From NCBI GenBank assembly GCA_963744145.1, contig CAVUSO010000001.1:4224001-4288000 (forward strand): a DNA stretch of 64,000 nucleotides, read 5' to 3'. Below, piece after piece: positions 8,191 through 61,803 of the stretch. Position 1 is the stretch's first letter, and each line of letters starts with the position of its first letter. The translations under genes were made by a program, and so were the position numbers. The stretch is from an uncultured cyanobacterium (GTDB taxonomy: Bacteria; Cyanobacteriota; Cyanobacteriia; Cyanobacteriales; CAWUOF01). The notes under the pieces were generated by a model. The model was given only the letters and a program-made list of their open reading frames with translations. It had not been told where the DNA came from and made no database searches.

Positions 8191-8465
8191 GATGATTTCC
8201 CTGTTCCCTAAAATATTTTTAATTTACCCACAGCAAGCATCGGTTATTCTGGTCTTCTGGTCAATATCTTAAGATTAGAACTTTTGATGATTTTCTTAAT
8301 TGAGAAATAGTCATTTCACCCCTCCCTAAATTGGCCTATTTACACGATTATAATCTCAATGTAAACTAAGAATAAATTAAGGGTGTTGGGGATCAGATCA
8401 GACAGTCCCAAATTTAAGGTTGTTTAATCAGGTAGAGTGAAATTGGTGATGACTTAAACGCGCAT

Positions 8466-10621
8466 TTCTTCACTGAACCATATTAATATATAGTTGATCT
8501 GTTGGCTGCATAGATGGTGAGGGCAAAGCATTTCGGTATTATTATTCTTCCCTTCGACTACGCTCAGGGTAAACGCTTCAGTTATGATTTATGCACCGAA
8601 ATGCTTTGCCCCTACAAGTTAACTGAACTGGATTGAATTATATATTATTTTTCAAGCCAACTAGGTTCAGTCAGCGCCCCTTACTTTTTGTCCGAGATCC
8701 TGTAGGGGTGAAGCATTCGGGCGATAATTGAGCGTTCAAACCAGTAATATTATACCCGAATGCTTCACCCTGCTTTTGCGCCGAGATCCCCAAAAATATT
8801 CTTAACTGAACCCTATTAATATATAGTTGATCTGTTGGTTGCATGGATGGTGAGGGCAAAGCATTTCGGTATTATTATTCTTCGCTTCAGTTATGATTTA
8901 TGCACCGAAATGCTTTGCCCCTACAAGTTAACTGAACTGGATTGGATTATATATTATTTCTCAATCCAACTAGGTTCCGTCGGTGCCCCTTGCCTTTTGT
9001 CCGAGATCCTGTAGGGGTGAAGCATTCGGGCGATAATTGAGCGTTCAAACCAGTAATATTATACCCGAATGCTTCACCCTGCTTTTGCGCCGAGATCCCC
9101 AAAAATATTCTTAACTGAACCCTATTAATATATAGTTGATCTGTTGGCTGCATAGATGGTGAGGGCAAAGCATTTCGGTATTATTATTCTTCCCTTCGAC
9201 TACGCTCAGGGTAAACGCTTCAGTTATGATTTATGCGCCGAAATGCTTTGCCCCTACAAGTTAACTGAACTGGATTGAATTATATATTATTTTTCAAGCC
9301 AACTAGGTTCAGTCAGCGCCCCTTACTTTTTGTCCGAGATCCTGTAGGGGTGAAGCATTCGGGCGATAATTGAGCGTTCAAACCAGTAATATTATACCCG
9401 AATGCTTCACCCTGCTTTTGCGCCGAGATCCCCAAAAATATTCTTCACTAAACCCTATTAATATATAGTTGATCTGTTGGTTGCATGGATGGTGAGGGCA
9501 AAGCATTTCGGTATTATTATTCTTCGCTTCAGTTATGATTTATGCACCGAAATGCTTTGCCCCTACAAGTTAACTGAACTGGATTGGATTATATATTATT
9601 TCTCAATCCAACTAGGTTCCGTCAGTGCCCCTTGCCTTTTGTCCGAGATCCTGTAGGGGTGAAGCATTCGGGCGATAATTGAGCGTTCAAACCAGTAATA
9701 TTATACCCGAATGCTTCACCCTTCGACTACGCTCAGGGTAAACCCTGCTTTTGCGCCGAGATCCCCAAAAATATTCTTAACTGAACCCTATTAATATATA
9801 GTTGATCTGTTGGCTGCATGGATGGTGAGGGCAAAGCATTTCGGTATTATTATTCTTCGCTTCAGTTATGATTTATGCACCGGAATGCTTTGCCCCTACA
9901 AGTTAACTGAACTGGATTGGATTATATATTATTTCTCAATCCAACTAGGTTCCGTCGGTGCCCCTTGCCTTTTGTCCGAGATCCTGTAGGGGTGAAGCAT
10001 TCGGGCGATAATTGAGCGTTCAAACCAGTAATATTATACCCGAATGCTTCACCCTGCTTTTGCGCCGAGATCCCCAAAAATATTCTTAACTGAACCCTAT
10101 TAATATATAGTTGATCTGTTGGCTGCATGGATGGTGAGGGCAAAGCATTTCGGTATTATTATTCTTCCCTTCAGTTATGATTTATGCGCCGAAATGCTTT
10201 GCCCCTACAAGTTAACTGAACTGGATTGGATTATATATTATTTCTCAATCCAACTAGGTTCCGTCAGTGCCCCTTGCCTTTTGTCCGAGATCCTGTAGGG
10301 GTGAAGCATTCGGGCGATAATTGAGCGTTCAAACCAGTAATATTATACCCGAATGCTTCACCCTGCTTTTGCGCCGAGATCCCCAAAAATATTCTTAACT
10401 GAACCCTATTAATATATAGTTGATCTGTTGGCTGCATGGATGGTGAGGGCAAAGCATTTCGGTATTATTATTCTTCCCTTCGACTACGCTCAGGGTAAAC
10501 CCTTCAGTTATGATTTATGCACCGAAATGCTTTGCCCCTACAAGTTAACTGAACTGGATTGAATTATATATTATTTTTCAATCCAACTCGGTTCCGTTAG
10601 TGCCCCTTGCATTTTGCCGAG
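8466..10621. repeat. Tandem array of ~6.5 units of 309 or 333 bp, each with an mfd 3'-end copy, two REP hairpins and two MITE-end-like motifs
   Basis: Marker tgtaggggtgaagcattcggg occurs at 8701, 9010, 9343, 9652, 9985 and 10294 (spacings 309/333/309/333/309). Confidence 0.97.
8551..8574. repeat. 24-bp small dispersed insert ccttcgactacgctcagggtaaac (also 9193-9216, 9720-9743, 10477-10500)
   Basis: Present in some array units and absent from others, accounting for the 333 vs 309 bp unit lengths. Confidence 0.9.
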
Positions 10622-13600
10622 CCAATCAATTAGATAATCAAGTTGTTTATCTGCACTTAATACTCCCATTCCTCTGACAGTTACTTTCCCTGGTGTATAA
10701 ACAAATTTGGGATGTAAATGTTCTGGCAGATTTGCTATTAATAATTTCCATCCAGGTTCTGCCATTGGTGTTTCTAAGACTATATGTTGTTTTCCTTCCG
10801 GTTTAATCCGCGAAAAACCGACTTTCTTACCCAGTTGTTTTAGTTCCATTACTCTTAATAATTGAGTAGCAGGAAGAGGAATATTACCGTAGCGATCGCA
10901 CCATTCCGAAGCGATCGCTGTTAATTCACCTTTTGATGTAGCAGCAGCGACCGCACGATAAGCACTCATTTTTTGATCTAAATCTGGAATATAATCAGCC
11001 GGAATAAAGGCAGTTAAACTCAAATCAATTTGGGTATCATCAACTTGGGGAATTTCCTGACCTCTAATTTCTCGAATTGCTTCTTGTAACATTTCTGTAT
11101 AAAGATCAAATCCAATTGCATCCAATTGACCTGATTGTTCAGCTCCCAAAATATCTCCGACCCCGCGAATTTCCATATCGCGCATTGCTAACTGATATCC
11201 CGAACCTAATTGGGTAAATTCTTGAATCGCTCGCAATCTTTTTCTAGCATCATCACTTAAAGCTCCTGTACCATGTTCACCAGCAGGATAAAATAACCAA
11301 GCATGGGCTTGAATTCCAGCTCTTCCTACTCTACCGCGCAATTGATAAAGTTGAGCTAATCCAAACCGATGAGCATCTTCTATTAAAATAGTATTTACTC
11401 GGGGAATATCTAACCCAGATTCAATAATTGTCGTACAAATTAAAATATCGGCTTCACCATTACTAAAACTGAGCATAGTAGCTTCCAATTCTGATTCAGC
11501 CAATTGACCATGAGCGATCGCAATTCGCGCTCCTGGGATCATTAATTGTAACTTAACGGCAATTTCCTCAATCCCTTCAATCCGAGGGACTACATAAAAC
11601 ACCTGACCTCCCCGATCTAATTCTTGTCGAATTCCGGTCCGAACTGCATCAGGATGATAAGGAGCTAAATGAGTTTGAATGGGACGACGTGAGGGAGGTG
11701 GAGTAGTAATCAAACTCATCTCCCGAATTCCAGACAATGCCATATATAATGTGCGCGGGATCGGTGTAGCTGTTAATGTCAATACATCTACTTGAGCTTT
11801 GAGACTTTTAATCTTTTCTTTTTGAGTGACTCCAAACCGTTGTTCTTCATCTACTACCAACAGTCCCAAATCCTTAAAATTAACTCCCTTACCTAAAATT
11901 GCATGAGTCCCCACTACTACATCTAACTCTCCAGTCGCTAAACGTCGTTGAATGTCCCGTCGTTCATCAGCAGACCGAAAACGATTTAATAGTCCCACAT
12001 TAATTGGGTAAGGAGCAAAACGTTCTTTTAAAGTGTGATAGTGCTGCTGAGTTAGAATTGTGGTAGGAGCCAATAAAGCCACCTGTTTACCAGCAGTAAT
12101 AGCTTTAAAAATACTTCTAATCGCTACCTCAGTTTTGCCAAAACCCACATCCCCACAGACTAAACGATCCATGGGTTGGTTTGATTCCATATCTCGTTTG
12201 ACATCTTGGGTTGCTTTCAACTGATCGGGAGTTGGTTGATAATGAAACGAATCTTCTAATTCCTCTTGCCAAGGTAAATCAGGTGGATAAGCATAACCTT
12301 GTTGTTGCGCTCTTTTAGCATAAAGCTTCAGCAAATCAACTGCTAATTTTTTAATGGCTTTTCTAGCCCTACTTTTAGTATTCTCCCAAGCTTTCCCGGT
12401 TAATTTACTTAATTCTGGTGCTTTATCACCTGCGGTCCGATAGCGAGATAATGATCCCAACTGATCAGCTGCGACTCTGAGTAAACCATCAGCATACTTC
12501 ACTACTAAATATTCGCGAGTTTCATTATTCAGGGTGAGACTTTCCAATTTGAGAAATTTCCCTACCCCATGACGTTTGTGAACGACATAATCTCCTTGAC
12601 TTAATTTATTGGGATCAACTTGTTGAGAAGCAGCACGACGACGTTTCCGAATATAGCCCACACTTGCTAAAACGTGCTGACCATAAAATTCCCGATCGGT
12701 GACGATGATCAGTCGGAAGGTGGGGAGAAGAAAACCTTCTAATTCCGCTAAACCACTATATTTCAGAGCGATCGGGATATGTTGGGTATGGAGTTTATCG
12801 ATCGCGGGATAGTCGTGGGGATTAGGAATAAATTGGGCAGGACAATCATGTTCTTGTAATAAAGACACACTCCGACTAGGTTGAGCAGAAATCAGAAAGA
12901 CCGAAAACCCTTGAATAATTTCACTCCGAATCGTTTCAGCAATTTTAGCAAATTGGTGGGGCATTACCGGTAAAGGACGACTCGCTAAATTCATTGGTTG
13001 ATAATTTTCTAGCGATCCCCGTTGACTGCGGTCTTCTACTAATTCCGATAGAAATATCCGCTCCCATTTAGCTGTAGCTTCCAAAGAATCGGCAAAATTG
13101 CGGTGCATTTTCAGAAACTGGTGGTTTGATAAGTCAGCACCTATAGTTAATTGTTGCCATTGTGCTTCAGTATGTTCCACCCAACGCAATCCGTGAGCGC
13201 TACATTGAGATACTTCATCGATCGCAATCAGGGTATCTGGAGGAAGATAGTCAAGTATACTAGCAGGTTGGGTAAATACCATTCCCAATAACTCAGACAG
13301 ACTTGGTTCTGAATCGAGATCAGACTCAAGTTGAGCTAAAACAATTGACCGAAAATCTGTCGGAGTCAGGGTAAGGTGATTAATTTTATCGAGCGATCGC
13401 TGGGTGGAGGGATCAAATTCTCGTAACTGTTCCAAATTATCCCCAAACCACTCTAACCGGACTGGTAGTTCTGCTGATACTGGGAATACATCAACTATAT
13501 CCCCACGCCGACTCCATTGACCTTCTGTTTCTACTAAGGCTACTCTTTCGTAACCTAATCGAGCTAGTTGGTTGTTAATCTCCTGAGAATCCAATGACAT

Positions 13601-14038
13601 TCCCCGTTTCAGGGTCAGACAATAGGATTTTAAGGTTTCTACTGGTGGTAAATGTTCCTGTAAAGCTCGTTCGGTGACGACGATCGCTTGATTTTTCGAC
13701 CCTTGCAATAATTCAGCTAATACTTGCATTTGACCCCAGGTAGTTTCTGATTCTGGGTGATAGCTCTCGTAGGGTGATGCTTCTGAGGTTGGATAAAAAT
13801 GTACTGTTTCCCAGCCGATCGCTTCTAGTTGGGCAAACCAGCGACCTGCTTCTTCTAAAGTTGCTGTGATTACTAATAAATTATGTTCTTGAGCTTGGGC
13901 TAAAGTCGAAGCAATCAAACCTTTGGGAAATCGGGATATCCCATTTAAGTATAAATTTTGCTGTCGATGCAGCTTATTCACCAGCTCCGTGGTGAGGGGC
14001 GATCGCTTGAGCAACCGAATTAGAGCAGAAAAAGCCAT
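10571..14038 (-). CDS. mfd: Transcription-repair coupling factor
   Basis: CarD-like [31 protein letters not shown] and QLRGRVGR. Confidence 0.98.
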
Positions 14039-61647: not shown

Positions 61648-61803
61648 TAGTACAGTTCAGTTAATTGTAGGGGCGTTCGCGTAGCGTGCCGGAGGCATAG
61701 CATTCGGGCGATAACTTATCACTTAAACAAGTTAATATTATATCCGAATGCTTCGCCCTTCTTCGCCGATATCTCCCAAAATATTCTTAACTGAACCATA
61801 TTG
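61648..61803. mobile_element. 156-bp MITE with perfect 10-bp target duplication tgttataatc
   Basis: tagtacagttcagttaa / ttaactgaaccatattg ends; duplication at 61638-61647 and 61804-61813. Confidence 0.88.

What the first reader, a model, noticed from the sequence alone, without database searches (positions are those of the whole stretch)
8645..10621. Array units store alternative, mostly synonymous versions of the mfd 3' end
Seen: the last ~50 bp of mfd ([12 protein letters not shown], stop at 10571) recurs with stops at 8645, 8954, 9287, 9596, 9929 and 10238 in three alleles. The 9596/10238 allele encodes the same peptide with only wobble changes (cta>ctg, ccg>cct, gaa>gag). The 8645/9287 allele gives [11 protein letters not shown] with four wobble changes, and 8954/9929 has L>P. 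Inference: third-position bias means these pieces evolved as functional mfd ends, as when an integrating element replaces the 3' end of its target gene. The array may record successive integrations into mfd by a tiny non-coding element.
Basis: partly seen in the sequence, partly recalled or inferred. Interest (0 to 1): 0.78.

Follow-up and report, generated by a model that had tools for sequence, protein, structure and literature searches.

The report
Tandem MITE array repeating mfd's end
A small hairpin-bearing mobile DNA element that landed just behind the repair gene mfd was multiplied head to tail together with the gene's last 40 bases, which is a known side effect of such elements rather than a record of repeated integrations.

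Summary
The last 40 nt of mfd recur six times, with stops at 8645, 8954, 9287, 9596, 9929 and 10238, in three alleles, inside a 309-nt tandem array at 8466-10621.

Each unit is the copied mfd end, a 16-nt junction patch and a 268-nt double-hairpin MITE. That MITE belongs to a family with about 274 loci and 22 tandem clusters in this genome. The family has 10-bp target duplications and shares its terminal repeats with a 1472-bp IS4-family insertion sequence.

At least three other arrays repeat their own flanks, one of them another gene's last 29 nt. The mfd end occurs nowhere else in the genome. No integrase lies nearby. None of 29 relatives has anything similar behind mfd. Tandem REP/REPIN clusters that include flanking DNA are already in print.

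Constraint on the real gene end alone accounts for it (p 0.11-0.22).

My best reading is local tandem amplification followed by gene conversion (about 0.72). One puzzle remains: the copied ends differ far more than the element parts beside them. I rate it as a new member of a known kind, of low to moderate interest.

The parts
10571..14038 (-). mfd (transcription-repair coupling factor), 1155 aa; its stop codon is at 10571-10573
   Evidence: ORF list. Pfam hits: UvrB_inter, CarD_TRCF_RID, DEAD, Helicase_C and TRCF.
8466..10621 (.). Tandem array of six full units (309 nt, or 333 nt with a 24-nt insert) plus one distal truncated unit; its last 51 nt overlap the real mfd end
10571..10610 (-). Real mfd end (E0): the last 13 codons including the stop, which is the source of the copies
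10238..10277 (-). Copy of the mfd end, allele C (same peptide, three wobble changes)
9929..9968 (-). Copy of the mfd end, allele B (as C, plus Leu>Pro)
9596..9635 (-). Copy of the mfd end, allele C
9287..9326 (-). Copy of the mfd end, allele A (four wobble changes, Ile>Leu, Gln codon>TAA)
8954..8993 (-). Copy of the mfd end, allele B
8645..8684 (-). Copy of the mfd end, allele A
10278..10293 (.). 16-nt junction patch between a copied mfd end and the foot of hairpin H1. The same patch lies at 8685-8700, 8994-9009, 9327-9342, 9636-9651 and 9969-9984. It shares TTTTG.CCGAG with mfd (10611-10621) and resembles a left flank found before GTAGGGG hairpins at 22 other loci.
10294..10561 (.). Element body D of the unit next to mfd: a 268-nt double-hairpin MITE lacking its canonical left terminal repeat
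   Evidence: BLAST family; solitary copies with both terminal repeats.
9985..10228 (.). Element body D
9652..9919 (.). Element body D, carrying the 24-nt insert beside H1
9343..9586 (.). Element body D
9010..9277 (.). Element body D, carrying the 24-nt insert in the H2 loop
8701..8944 (.). Element body D
8466..8635 (.). Distal truncated element body (positions 99-268 of D: the H2 module only). It abuts unique DNA at 8465/8466.
10295..10363 (.). Hairpin H1, with a GTAG-tagged foot and a 16-bp perfect stem. The same hairpin lies at 8702-8770, 9011-9079, 9344-9412, 9653-9721 and 9986-10054, identical in all six units.
   Evidence: Fold -21.7 kcal/mol, z -7.2, 0 of 200 shuffles as good; coordinates; 0 of 72 columns variable.
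10445..10541 (.). Hairpin H2, with a 17-bp stem and its GTAG-tagged foot on the minus strand. The same hairpin lies at 8519-8615, 8852-8924, 9161-9257, 9494-9566, 9827-9899 and 10136-10208.
   Evidence: Fold -18.8 to -20.6 kcal/mol, z -4.2; coordinates.
10562..10570 (.). 9-nt AT-rich spacer between the element's right terminal repeat and the mfd stop. Together with base 10571 it has the length and composition of the family's 10-bp target site. It is repeated in every unit.
   Evidence: AT-rich 10-bp duplications at solitary copies.
10476..10499 (.). 24-nt small dispersed insert in the H2 loop. The same insert lies at 8550-8573 and 9192-9215.
   Evidence: 75 exact and 171 copies with 2 or fewer mismatches in the genome.
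9719..9742 (.). The same 24-nt insert at a different site, beside H1, in one unit only

Best explanation
A 286-nt non-coding transposable element with two hairpins, a MITE mobilised by an IS4-family transposase, inserted directly behind the mfd stop codon. A short patch of similarity (TTTTG.CCGAG) exists between mfd, 40 nt upstream of its stop, and the DNA at the far foot of the element. Slippage or unequal exchange at that patch duplicated a 309-nt segment: the element without its left terminal repeat, the 9-nt spacer, and the last 40-51 nt of mfd.

Ordinary unequal crossing-over between the now repeated units then raised the copy number, partly in two-unit blocks. Small 24-nt inserts landed in some units, and short-tract gene conversion shuffled and homogenised the element parts. 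The copied mfd ends are untranslated by-products that drift. The real end stays under selection.

Shown here: the anatomy, the element family with its transposase partner, reiterated flanks at other loci, the uniqueness of the mfd-end copies, and signs of recombination among units. Inferred: the order of events, hairpin-promoted slippage as the trigger, and gene conversion as the homogenising force.
For: Element family. The 268-nt body gives 466 BLAST matches at 274 loci, of which 22 are tandem clusters longer than 500 bp. 29 of 94 terminal-repeat pairs closer than 450 nt have a perfect duplication of 10 bp or more, against 0 in a shifted control. Seven 1472-bp copies with the same terminal repeats each carry a 10-bp duplication (7 of 7) and encode a 461-aa IS4-family DDE transposase. 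Solitary double-hairpin copies have both terminal repeats.

Reiterated flanks elsewhere. At least 4 of the 22 clusters have spacers that copy their own unique flank: mfd, C1:4207758, C1:696149 and C1:6029808. The last of these repeats the final 29 nt of a 700-aa ORF.

Uniqueness. Outside the array, the 62-nt end segments find only 12-20-nt chance matches.

Junction. The 16-nt patch resembles a left flank seen before GTAGGGG hairpins at 22 other loci and shares TTTTG.CCGAG with mfd.

Block duplication. U0 is like U2, and U1 is like U3.

Recombination among units. 17 of 66 informative site pairs show all four gametes.

Copies are decaying. The Met codon conserved in 14 relatives' loci is changed in all six copies. 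Allele A has a stop at the Gln codon and allele B has Leu>Pro. No Pfam family is found in the two array ORFs tested.

Precedent in print. [quoted passage not shown]
Against: Uniform drift after duplication does not fit the data. Among copies U1-U5, 7 of 55 columns of junction plus mfd end vary, against 8 of 254 in the rest of the unit (p 0.008). The real unit U6 and the neighbouring copy U5 differ at 5 of 47 against 2 of 254 positions. The H1 module is invariant: 0 of 102 columns against 16 of 191 elsewhere (p 0.002). An extra process is therefore needed, either homogenisation that spares the ends or extra mutation in the ends, and I did not demonstrate either.

Other arrays do not show the same contrast consistently. 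The spacer is less variable than the element at C1:250106 and C1:4207758, and more variable at C1:7452867.

The distal unit is truncated, so the original left side of the element is lost and the breakpoints cannot be fixed to the base.

The synonymous excess is nominally significant on the narrow stretch.

No amplification event was observed directly, and no close relative exists to supply an empty or single-copy site.
Confidence: 0.72

Rival explanations
1. One reading: the copied ends are an archive of earlier or foreign functional mfd ends. Each was attached to mfd at some time and evolved under coding constraint there, possibly in other strains and then imported by recombination. Each was then pushed outward when a new element-plus-end unit was added at the gene.
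For: 5 of 7 (or 5 of 8) changes in the surely mfd-derived stretch are synonymous, p 0.008-0.04. The ends are 10-15% diverged while the element parts next to them differ by under 1-2%, as if the ends were older than the elements or came from elsewhere. The five changes specific to allele A form one block within about 30 nt (positions 16-43 of the unit alignment), and no donor for that block exists in the genome.
Against: Constraint on the real end alone predicts 35-43% synonymous differences, and 5 of 8 is compatible with that (p 0.11-0.22). By my own rate argument, if the capture events were separated by enough time for 3-4 synonymous changes in 12 codons, the silent copies and their element parts should have accumulated many more random changes than are seen. 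Both copy lineages share one identical junction patch, which points to a single junction-forming event. The order A,B,A,C,B,C fits block duplication. No source of units carrying an mfd end exists outside the locus. 0 of 29 relatives show anything behind mfd.
Confidence: 0.1
2. The units were added by an element enzyme rather than by general recombination. One version has the IS4 transposase treating each unit as a new MITE, because the mfd tail itself looks like a left terminal repeat. The other has a hairpin-specific HUH (IS200/RAYT-like) nuclease cutting at the GTAG foot and rejoining, as proposed for REP arrays.
For: The mfd tail aligns with the element's terminal repeat at 15 of 16 positions across a 5-nt gap; 13 of 2000 shuffles score as well. 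Each unit is therefore bounded by inverted repeat-like ends. In this array and in the ten arrays that share a 35-nt spacer, the junction lies exactly at the GTAG foot of H1. The genome has 17 Y1-transposase matches, and one such gene is flanked by inverted GTAG palindromes. The RAYT model for REP arrays is cited in PMC3733652 (passages).
Against: The spacers between units are 17 nt throughout. Serial insertion with a 10-bp duplication into a 17-nt site would leave spacers summing to 27 nt, not two of 17 nt (my reading). None of the 14 Y1-transposase loci tested has a family copy within 1.5 kb. The Y1 gene flanked by palindromes scores as IS200, and the RAYT model reaches 36.7 bits against a cut-off of 80. 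That gene's palindrome differs from H1 and H2 beyond the first nine bases.
Confidence: 0.1
3. The array is kept for a function: repeated small RNAs, 3' stabilisers or terminators of the mfd message, or antisense promoters against the mfd end.
For: Strong hairpins lie directly behind the stop. Every unit has weak promoter-like matches (TTAACT, 16 or 18 nt, then TATATT or TATTAT) pointing into the end copy; 15 sites in the region against 7.8 +/- 2.4 in shuffles. The H1 module is invariant in all six units.
Against: No Rfam family comes near its threshold: the best is 23.8 bits where 90 are needed. There are no terminator-like sites. The same module varies in its loop within other arrays. The family behaves as a transposon with target duplications.
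Confidence: 0.04
4. The array, or its allele pattern, is an assembly artefact.
For: Tandem repeats of a family with hundreds of copies are hard to assemble.
Against: Contigs of run X1 reproduce a unit-to-unit joint and allele A, at about twice the depth of unique mfd. That run may, however, be the source data.
Confidence: 0.02

Closest known systems
Tandem REPIN clusters of Pseudomonas fluorescens SBW25 (Bertels & Rainey 2011, PMC3116915; passages read)
   Same: Hairpin-forming doublets of inverted repeats are reiterated head to tail as nearly identical units that include their flanking sequence. Such clusters occur at many loci in one genome (16 there, 22 here).
   Different: Those units are RAYT-associated REP doublets of about 70-110 nt, with at most four REPINs plus one extra REP sequence per cluster. 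Here the unit is a 268-nt MITE with IS4-type terminal repeats, there are six to seven units, and the reiterated flank is the coding end of a gene. I found no RAYT link here.
GTAG-tagged REP clusters and BIMEs (Di Nocera et al. 2013, PMC3733652; passages read)
   Same: Stem-loops carry an unpaired GTAG at one foot. Pairs have their GTAG ends pointing outward. [quoted passage not shown] Such repeats are reported in cyanobacteria.
   Different: REPs are 20-40 bp. H1 and H2 have 16-17-bp stems and loops of roughly 35 nt (more with the 24-nt insert), and they sit inside a transposon with terminal repeats and 10-bp duplications. I did not see the sequences of the paper's cyanobacterial families (GTAG-12, -15, -16), so identity with them is untested.
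Cyanobacterial MITEs such as Nezha (Zhou et al. 2008, as summarised in PMC3184786; passages read)
   Same: Size of 130-300 nt; terminal inverted repeats shared with a full insertion sequence; flanking direct repeats; very stable predicted hairpins; location next to genes.
   Different: I did not see Nezha's sequence, so membership is untested. The passages read do not describe tandem arrays that reiterate a gene end.
Integrative elements that duplicate the 3' end of their target gene, such as islands in tRNA or tmRNA genes (recalled, no call)
   Same: A gene's 3' end appears again downstream as a direct repeat, and the gene stays intact.
   Different: Those elements carry an integrase and cargo, and the duplicated end is part of the element wherever it goes. 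Here there is no integrase, no cargo, and the end copies exist only at this locus.
Small dispersed repeats (SDR) of Nostoc (Elhai et al. 2008; seen only as a reference entry, content recalled; the paper is not held)
   Same: The 24-nt insert is in the SDR size range, is highly repeated (75 exact copies), and sits inside other repeats at different sites in different units.
   Different: I could not compare it with the named SDR families.
Diversity-generating retroelements, with a variable repeat at a gene's 3' end and a template repeat nearby (recalled)
   Same: Near-copies of a gene's 3' end lie close by and differ at scattered sites.
   Different: No reverse transcriptase lies within window 1-24000. 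By my own reading, only 4 of the 10 variable sites fall where the real end has adenine.

Membership tests
MITE (non-autonomous derivative of an IS4-family insertion sequence) | Terminal inverted repeats shared with an autonomous element in the same genome | tested here: met
   The repeat CAATACGGTTCAGTTAA, with 3 or fewer mismatches, occurs 205 + 271 times. Seven 1472-bp copies have the same ends and a 461-aa transposase that scores as IS4 family: NF033592 at 178 bits against a cut-off of 115, plus PF13006 and PF01609.
MITE (non-autonomous derivative of an IS4-family insertion sequence) | Target-site duplication of fixed length | tested here: met
   29 of 94 short repeat pairs have a perfect duplication of 10 bp or more, against 0 in the shifted control. 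7 of 7 full elements have a 10-bp duplication. The units inside the mfd array lack the canonical left repeat and have no duplication of their own, so they are immobile derivatives.
MITE (non-autonomous derivative of an IS4-family insertion sequence) | Small, multi-copy, without coding capacity | tested here: met
   268-286 nt, about 274 loci. The two array ORFs tested (73 and 62 aa) have no Pfam family.
REP / REPIN (RAYT-mobilised palindromes) | Stem-loop with an unpaired GTAG at one foot; inverted doublet | tested here: met
   H1 and H2 both start GTAGGGG and fold with 16-17-bp stems. They lie in opposite orientation with their GTAG feet outward.
REP / REPIN (RAYT-mobilised palindromes) | Association with a REP-associated tyrosine transposase gene flanked by the same repeats | tested here: not met
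   0 of 14 Y1-transposase loci have a family copy within 1.5 kb. One Y1 gene is flanked by a different GTAG palindrome and scores 36.7 bits on the RAYT model, whose cut-off is 80.
Tandem REP/REPIN-type cluster with reiterated flank | Head-to-tail units, each made of the element plus a piece of the locus's own flank | tested here: met
   Six copies of 40-51 nt of mfd plus the 9-nt spacer. The same holds at C1:4207758, C1:696149 and C1:6029808, each with its own flank.
Integrative element replacing the 3' end of its target gene | Integrase or recombinase in or beside the element | tested here: not met
   All 13 ORFs of 120 aa or more in window 1-24000 were scanned. None hits an integrase, recombinase, transposase or reverse-transcriptase family; two have no Pfam hit at all.
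Integrative element replacing the 3' end of its target gene | The replacement end travels with the element (found at other loci or genomes; same site used in relatives) | tested here: not met
   The end sequence occurs only at this locus. A degenerate pattern for the tail peptide gave 0 hits in genome contigs and 1 chance hit in metagenome contigs. 0 of 29 relatives' loci have copies or hairpins behind mfd, and 26 of those loci hold at least 1.2 kb of downstream DNA.
Diversity-generating retroelement | Reverse transcriptase nearby and adenine-specific differences | tested here: not met
   No reverse-transcriptase family among the neighbouring ORFs. 4 of 10 variable sites lie at adenines of the real end (read).
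Small dispersed repeats (Elhai 2008) | 21-27-nt highly repeated insert nested in other repeats | tested here: inconclusive
   Size (24 nt), copy number (75 exact, 171 with 2 or fewer mismatches) and nesting all fit. The named family sequences could not be consulted.

The most novel reading that the evidence does not exclude
The six copies are not mere debris. They would be a recombination-accessible store of alternative Mfd C-termini, some of which once were the working end of the gene, in this lineage or in other strains from which they were imported. They are kept diverged while the mobile-element parts around them are constantly homogenised. Unequal exchange between the real end and a copy would swap the last 11 residues of Mfd. 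The result would be an identical peptide with allele C, Leu>Pro with B, and Ile>Leu or a truncation with A.
Probability: 0.1. Interest if true: 0.55.

Novelty: new member of a known kind. Interest (0 to 1): 0.25.

Why it matters
The case shows, at base resolution, how a MITE that lands behind a gene can drag the gene's last codons into a tandem array. That creates pseudo-ends which look like alternative alleles. This is useful to know when reading repeats next to genes, and it is a caution against inferring selection from a handful of wobble changes.

The array is also a compact natural case of concerted evolution. Within a 309-nt unit one module is identical in six copies, a second carries shuffled polymorphisms, and the captured gene end is 10-15% diverged. 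If that contrast reflects gene conversion that halts at diverged patches, or mutation focused next to hairpins, it could be studied here.

The extreme C-terminus of Mfd is not conserved among relatives, so consequences for the protein are probably small.

Tried and rejected
Polarising the wobble changes with relatives failed. The nearest genomes are only 75% identical in mfd and third positions are saturated. A degenerate pattern for the tail peptide found nothing in genome contigs and one chance match in metagenome contigs, in an unrelated contig with no resemblance to mfd.

An in-genome donor for the block of changes in allele A was sought and not found.

A DGR-like mechanism was rejected: no reverse transcriptase and no adenine bias.

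A CRISPR-like reading of the regular 35-nt spacers was rejected. The long parts of those arrays are all copies of one family, and the 35-mer itself is the same at ten loci.

A RAYT link was tested and not found.

The Rfam search gave only sub-threshold microRNA-like hairpin matches.

Serial insertion by the transposase was rejected on spacer arithmetic.

Expression could not be addressed, because no RNA holder was listed among the sequencing runs. Runs X2-X4 hold only fragments of other organisms' mfd or of the repeat family.

Earlier notes of this scan held nothing on this locus or sequence.

Elhai et al. 2008 is not held, so the 24-nt insert could not be matched to a named SDR family. Its supplements, and those of Di Nocera 2013 listing the cyanobacterial GTAG families, may bear on naming the hairpins, and I did not read them.

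A full-text search for mfd + 'miniature inverted-repeat' + tandem found no paper.

Full report
OBSERVATION. The window lies at C1:4224001-4288000 of a 7.7-Mb genome. The octamer GCGATCGC occurs 7760 times where 116 are expected. From my own knowledge that excess is a hallmark of cyanobacteria.

mfd is the 1155-aa ORF at 10571-14038 on the minus strand and has all the Mfd domains. There are three alleles: C at 9596 and 10238, B at 8954 and 9929, and A at 8645 and 9287, with the stated wobble changes. Allele A has TAA in place of the Gln codon just upstream. All copies alter the Met codon that is conserved in the relatives. Tandem Repeats Finder reports period 309, 6.4 copies and 90% matches. 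BLAST places the array at 8466-10621.

ANATOMY OF A UNIT. Read in the direction of mfd, each unit holds the following parts.
- 40 nt that are clearly mfd-derived: 12 codons plus the stop.
- A 9-nt AT-rich spacer.
- A 268-nt body, D.
- A 16-nt junction patch.

D contains two strong hairpins in opposite orientation. Each starts with GTAGGGG at its outer foot. H2 has a 17-bp stem (z -4.2) and H1 has a 16-bp stem (-21.7 kcal/mol, z -7.2, 0 of 200 shuffles as good). The copied mfd end itself has no structure (z +0.4).

Units are 309 nt, or 333 nt where a 24-nt insert is present. That insert sits in the H2 loop in three units and at a different site beside H1 in one unit. The 24-mer has 75 exact copies and 171 copies with 2 or fewer mismatches in the genome. 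The distal unit is truncated to the H2 module and abuts unique DNA at 8465/8466.

WHAT D IS. D is a member of a large dispersed family: 466 BLAST matches, 65 of them near full length, at 274 loci. A strict motif for the hairpin foot occurs 456 times.

Typical solitary copies carry the terminal inverted repeat CAATMCGGTTCAGTTAA and its complement. 29 of 94 repeat pairs closer than 450 nt have a perfect direct duplication of 10 bp or more, against none in a shifted control. Seven 1472-bp elements have the same ends. All seven have 10-bp duplications and encode a 461-aa transposase of the IS4 family. Solitary double-hairpin copies of D with the left repeat directly before H1 and AT-rich flanks also exist.

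D is therefore a MITE. At the mfd locus its right end sits 9 nt from the stop codon. The units in the array lack the canonical left repeat.

The hairpin module recurs at 73-81% identity in 5 of 40 relatives searched. The 24-mer recurs at 97% in two others. The H1 module also appears at 79.7% on a plasmid of Allocoleopsis franciscana PCC 7113.

ARRAYS ARE A HABIT OF THE FAMILY. 22 of the 274 loci are tandem clusters longer than 500 bp. Ten of these share one 35-nt spacer. At least four have spacers that copy the unique DNA beside the array:
- mfd;
- C1:4207758, where the spacer joins 26 nt of one flank to 43 nt of the other, as a tandem duplication must;
- C1:696149;
- C1:6029808.

In the last of these, a 700-aa ORF ends inside the first hairpin foot and its final 29 nt are repeated in each spacer. 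The mfd-end sequence is found nowhere else in the genome.

This behaviour is in print for hairpin repeats. REPIN clusters are tandem repeats 'including the flanking sequences' (PMC3116915, passages). [quoted passage not shown]

THE JUNCTION. The 16-nt patch between a copied end and H1 shares TTTTG.CCGAG with mfd at 10611-10621. It also resembles a left flank (TTTTGTCCRGATTT) that precedes GTAGGGG hairpins at 22 other loci, and a stretch of D itself just beyond H1. The duplication joint therefore lies in a short patch of similarity between mfd and element DNA. Because the distal unit is truncated, the exact breakpoints cannot be recovered.

(a) Synonymous bias. Counting the Gln>stop change gives 5 of 8 (p 0.014-0.04). 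By codon position over all 16 homologous codons it is 5 of 11 (p 0.29). Among the copies alone it is 3 of 7 (p 0.43).

If copies drift freely while the real end accepts only synonymous changes, 35-43% of differences should be synonymous, and 5 of 8 is then ordinary (p 0.11-0.22). The bias is real but small, and it does not require the copies ever to have been functional.

(b) Relatives. The nearest genomes are 75% identical in mfd. Their C-termini read ...KMQGALPEPALV or variants, so the last eight residues of Mfd are poorly conserved and the tail here is lineage-specific. None of the 29 loci has copies of its own end or these hairpins downstream. No closer relative turned up in pattern scans of two public collections.

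(c) No integrase, recombinase, transposase or reverse-transcriptase family is found among the 13 ORFs of 120 aa or more in window 1-24000.

(d) The order A,B,A,C,B,C, with U0 like U2 and U1 like U3, points to duplication of two-unit blocks.

A REMAINING PUZZLE. Variation is very uneven along the unit. Among copies U1-U5, 7 of 55 columns of junction plus mfd end vary against 8 of 254 elsewhere (p 0.008). H1 (0 of 72) and the tail before it (0 of 30) are invariant. Splitting the unit into the block from the mfd end through the H2 module and the H1 module gives 16 of 191 against 0 of 102 (p 0.002).

Pairwise, unit U2 (allele A) and U5 (allele C) differ at 6 of 47 positions in the end but 2 of 254 elsewhere. 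The real unit U6 and U5 differ at 5 of 47 against 2 of 254.

The few polymorphisms in the H2 module are shuffled relative to the end alleles: 17 of 66 informative site pairs show all four gametes. That indicates gene conversion or exchange among units.

Other arrays do not share the pattern consistently, and H1 loops do vary within other arrays, so a general constraint on H1 is unlikely. My inference is that short-tract conversion keeps the element parts alike and stalls at the already diverged ends. Extra mutation in the ends, or import of diverged mfd ends by recombination with other strains, are not excluded.

INDEPENDENT DATA. One soil-metagenome run (X1) holds mfd without a difference over 642 nt. 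It also holds a contig joining an element end to a C-type copy and a contig with allele A, at roughly twice the depth of unique mfd. It may be the source sample. No run with RNA was listed.

MECHANISM AND ODDS. Most likely (about 0.72) is MITE insertion behind mfd, followed by one slippage or unequal-exchange event at the short patch of similarity, then expansion by unequal crossing-over, with conversion and small inserts afterwards. The anatomy, the family behaviour and the signs of recombination are shown. The trigger and the homogenising force are inferred.

The rivals are:
- an archive of once-functional or imported ends (0.10);
- enzyme-driven addition of units, supported only by the resemblance of the mfd tail to the element's terminal repeat (15 of 16 positions, 13 of 2000 shuffles) and by joints at the GTAG foot, and opposed by the spacer arithmetic and the lack of a linked Y1 transposase (0.10);
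- a functional RNA or regulatory array (0.04);
- an assembly artefact (0.02).

NOVELTY. This is a further example of a described phenomenon, tandem hairpin-repeat clusters that include flanking DNA. Here it occurs in an IS4-type MITE of a cyanobacterium, and the flank happens to be the end of mfd. A full-text search for mfd with 'miniature inverted-repeat' and tandem found no paper, but the kind is known. Interest is low to moderate. The uneven divergence within the unit is the only part a specialist might want to follow.

Noticed in passing
G000 C1: 161849, 250106, 2895299, 2922088, 2925395, 3120366, 5245957, 5942689, 7452640, 7497509 (outside the window): Ten tandem arrays of the same double-hairpin element, at ten different loci, all use one and the same 35-nt spacer (GTATTTAATCAGCGATCGCTTGCCGATCAATCGGG and close variants) between units. 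The regular spacing looks superficially CRISPR-like but is not. How one element-plus-spacer unit came to be arrayed at ten loci is unexplained.
   Followed up: partly
G000 C1:6027710-6030354 (outside the window): A 700-aa ORF ends with its stop codon inside the GTAG foot of the first hairpin of an array, and its last 29 nt are repeated in each spacer. This is a second case of a reiterated gene end, here with no divergence between copies.
   Followed up: partly
window 10579-10599 (minus strand, last codons of mfd): The lineage-specific tail of Mfd (TEPSWIEK) is encoded by a sequence that aligns with the MITE terminal repeat at 15 of 16 positions across a 5-nt gap; 13 of 2000 shuffles score as well. 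Relatives end in PEPALV or similar. The tail may be a leftover of an older MITE end fused to the ORF, or a chance pseudo-end.
   Followed up: partly
G000 C1:1537460-1538932 and six further copies (L044): An IS4-family insertion sequence of 1472 bp in 7 copies, each with a 10-bp target duplication. It is the likely mobiliser of the hairpin MITEs.
   Followed up: yes
G000 C1:5991088-5991810 (L045) and C1:5547107-5547441: A 187-aa Y1 (IS200-like) transposase gene is flanked on both sides, in inverted orientation, by the palindrome GTAGGGGCGTATTGCAATACGCCC. This is a REPtron-like layout. A broken second copy has the same flanks. It scores as IS200 and falls below the RAYT model's cut-off.
   Followed up: partly
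G000 C1:6661507-6662857: A partial Y1-transposase match lies between runs of a third GTAG-tagged repeat (GTAGGGGCGGGTTCACC...), spaced about 172-192 nt apart.
   Followed up: no
window 8550-8573, 9192-9215, 9719-9742, 10476-10499: A 24-nt insert with 75 exact genome copies sits at two different sites in different units of the array, each time next to a short GGG-containing duplication. It recurs at 97% identity in two other genomes of the order. It is probably one of the small dispersed repeats described for Nostoc.
   Followed up: partly
window 8619-8648 and the same place in every unit, up to 10545-10574 (plus strand): Weak sigma-70-like matches (TTAACT, 16 or 18 nt, then TATATT or TATTAT; 9 of 12) point from each element into the adjacent mfd-end copy. 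At the real gene this is antisense to the mfd 3' end. These are consensus matches only.
   Followed up: no
window 61699-61802: A further fragment of the same element family (positions 12-117 of D, 83% identity) lies elsewhere in the window.
   Followed up: no
G000 C1: 20 loci, e.g. 179985, 182067, 5579496, 7103631: A third hairpin sub-family has the conserved left flank ...ACAGAATTTTGTCCGGATTT directly before GTAGGGGCAAAGC. That flank resembles the junction patch of the mfd array.
   Followed up: partly
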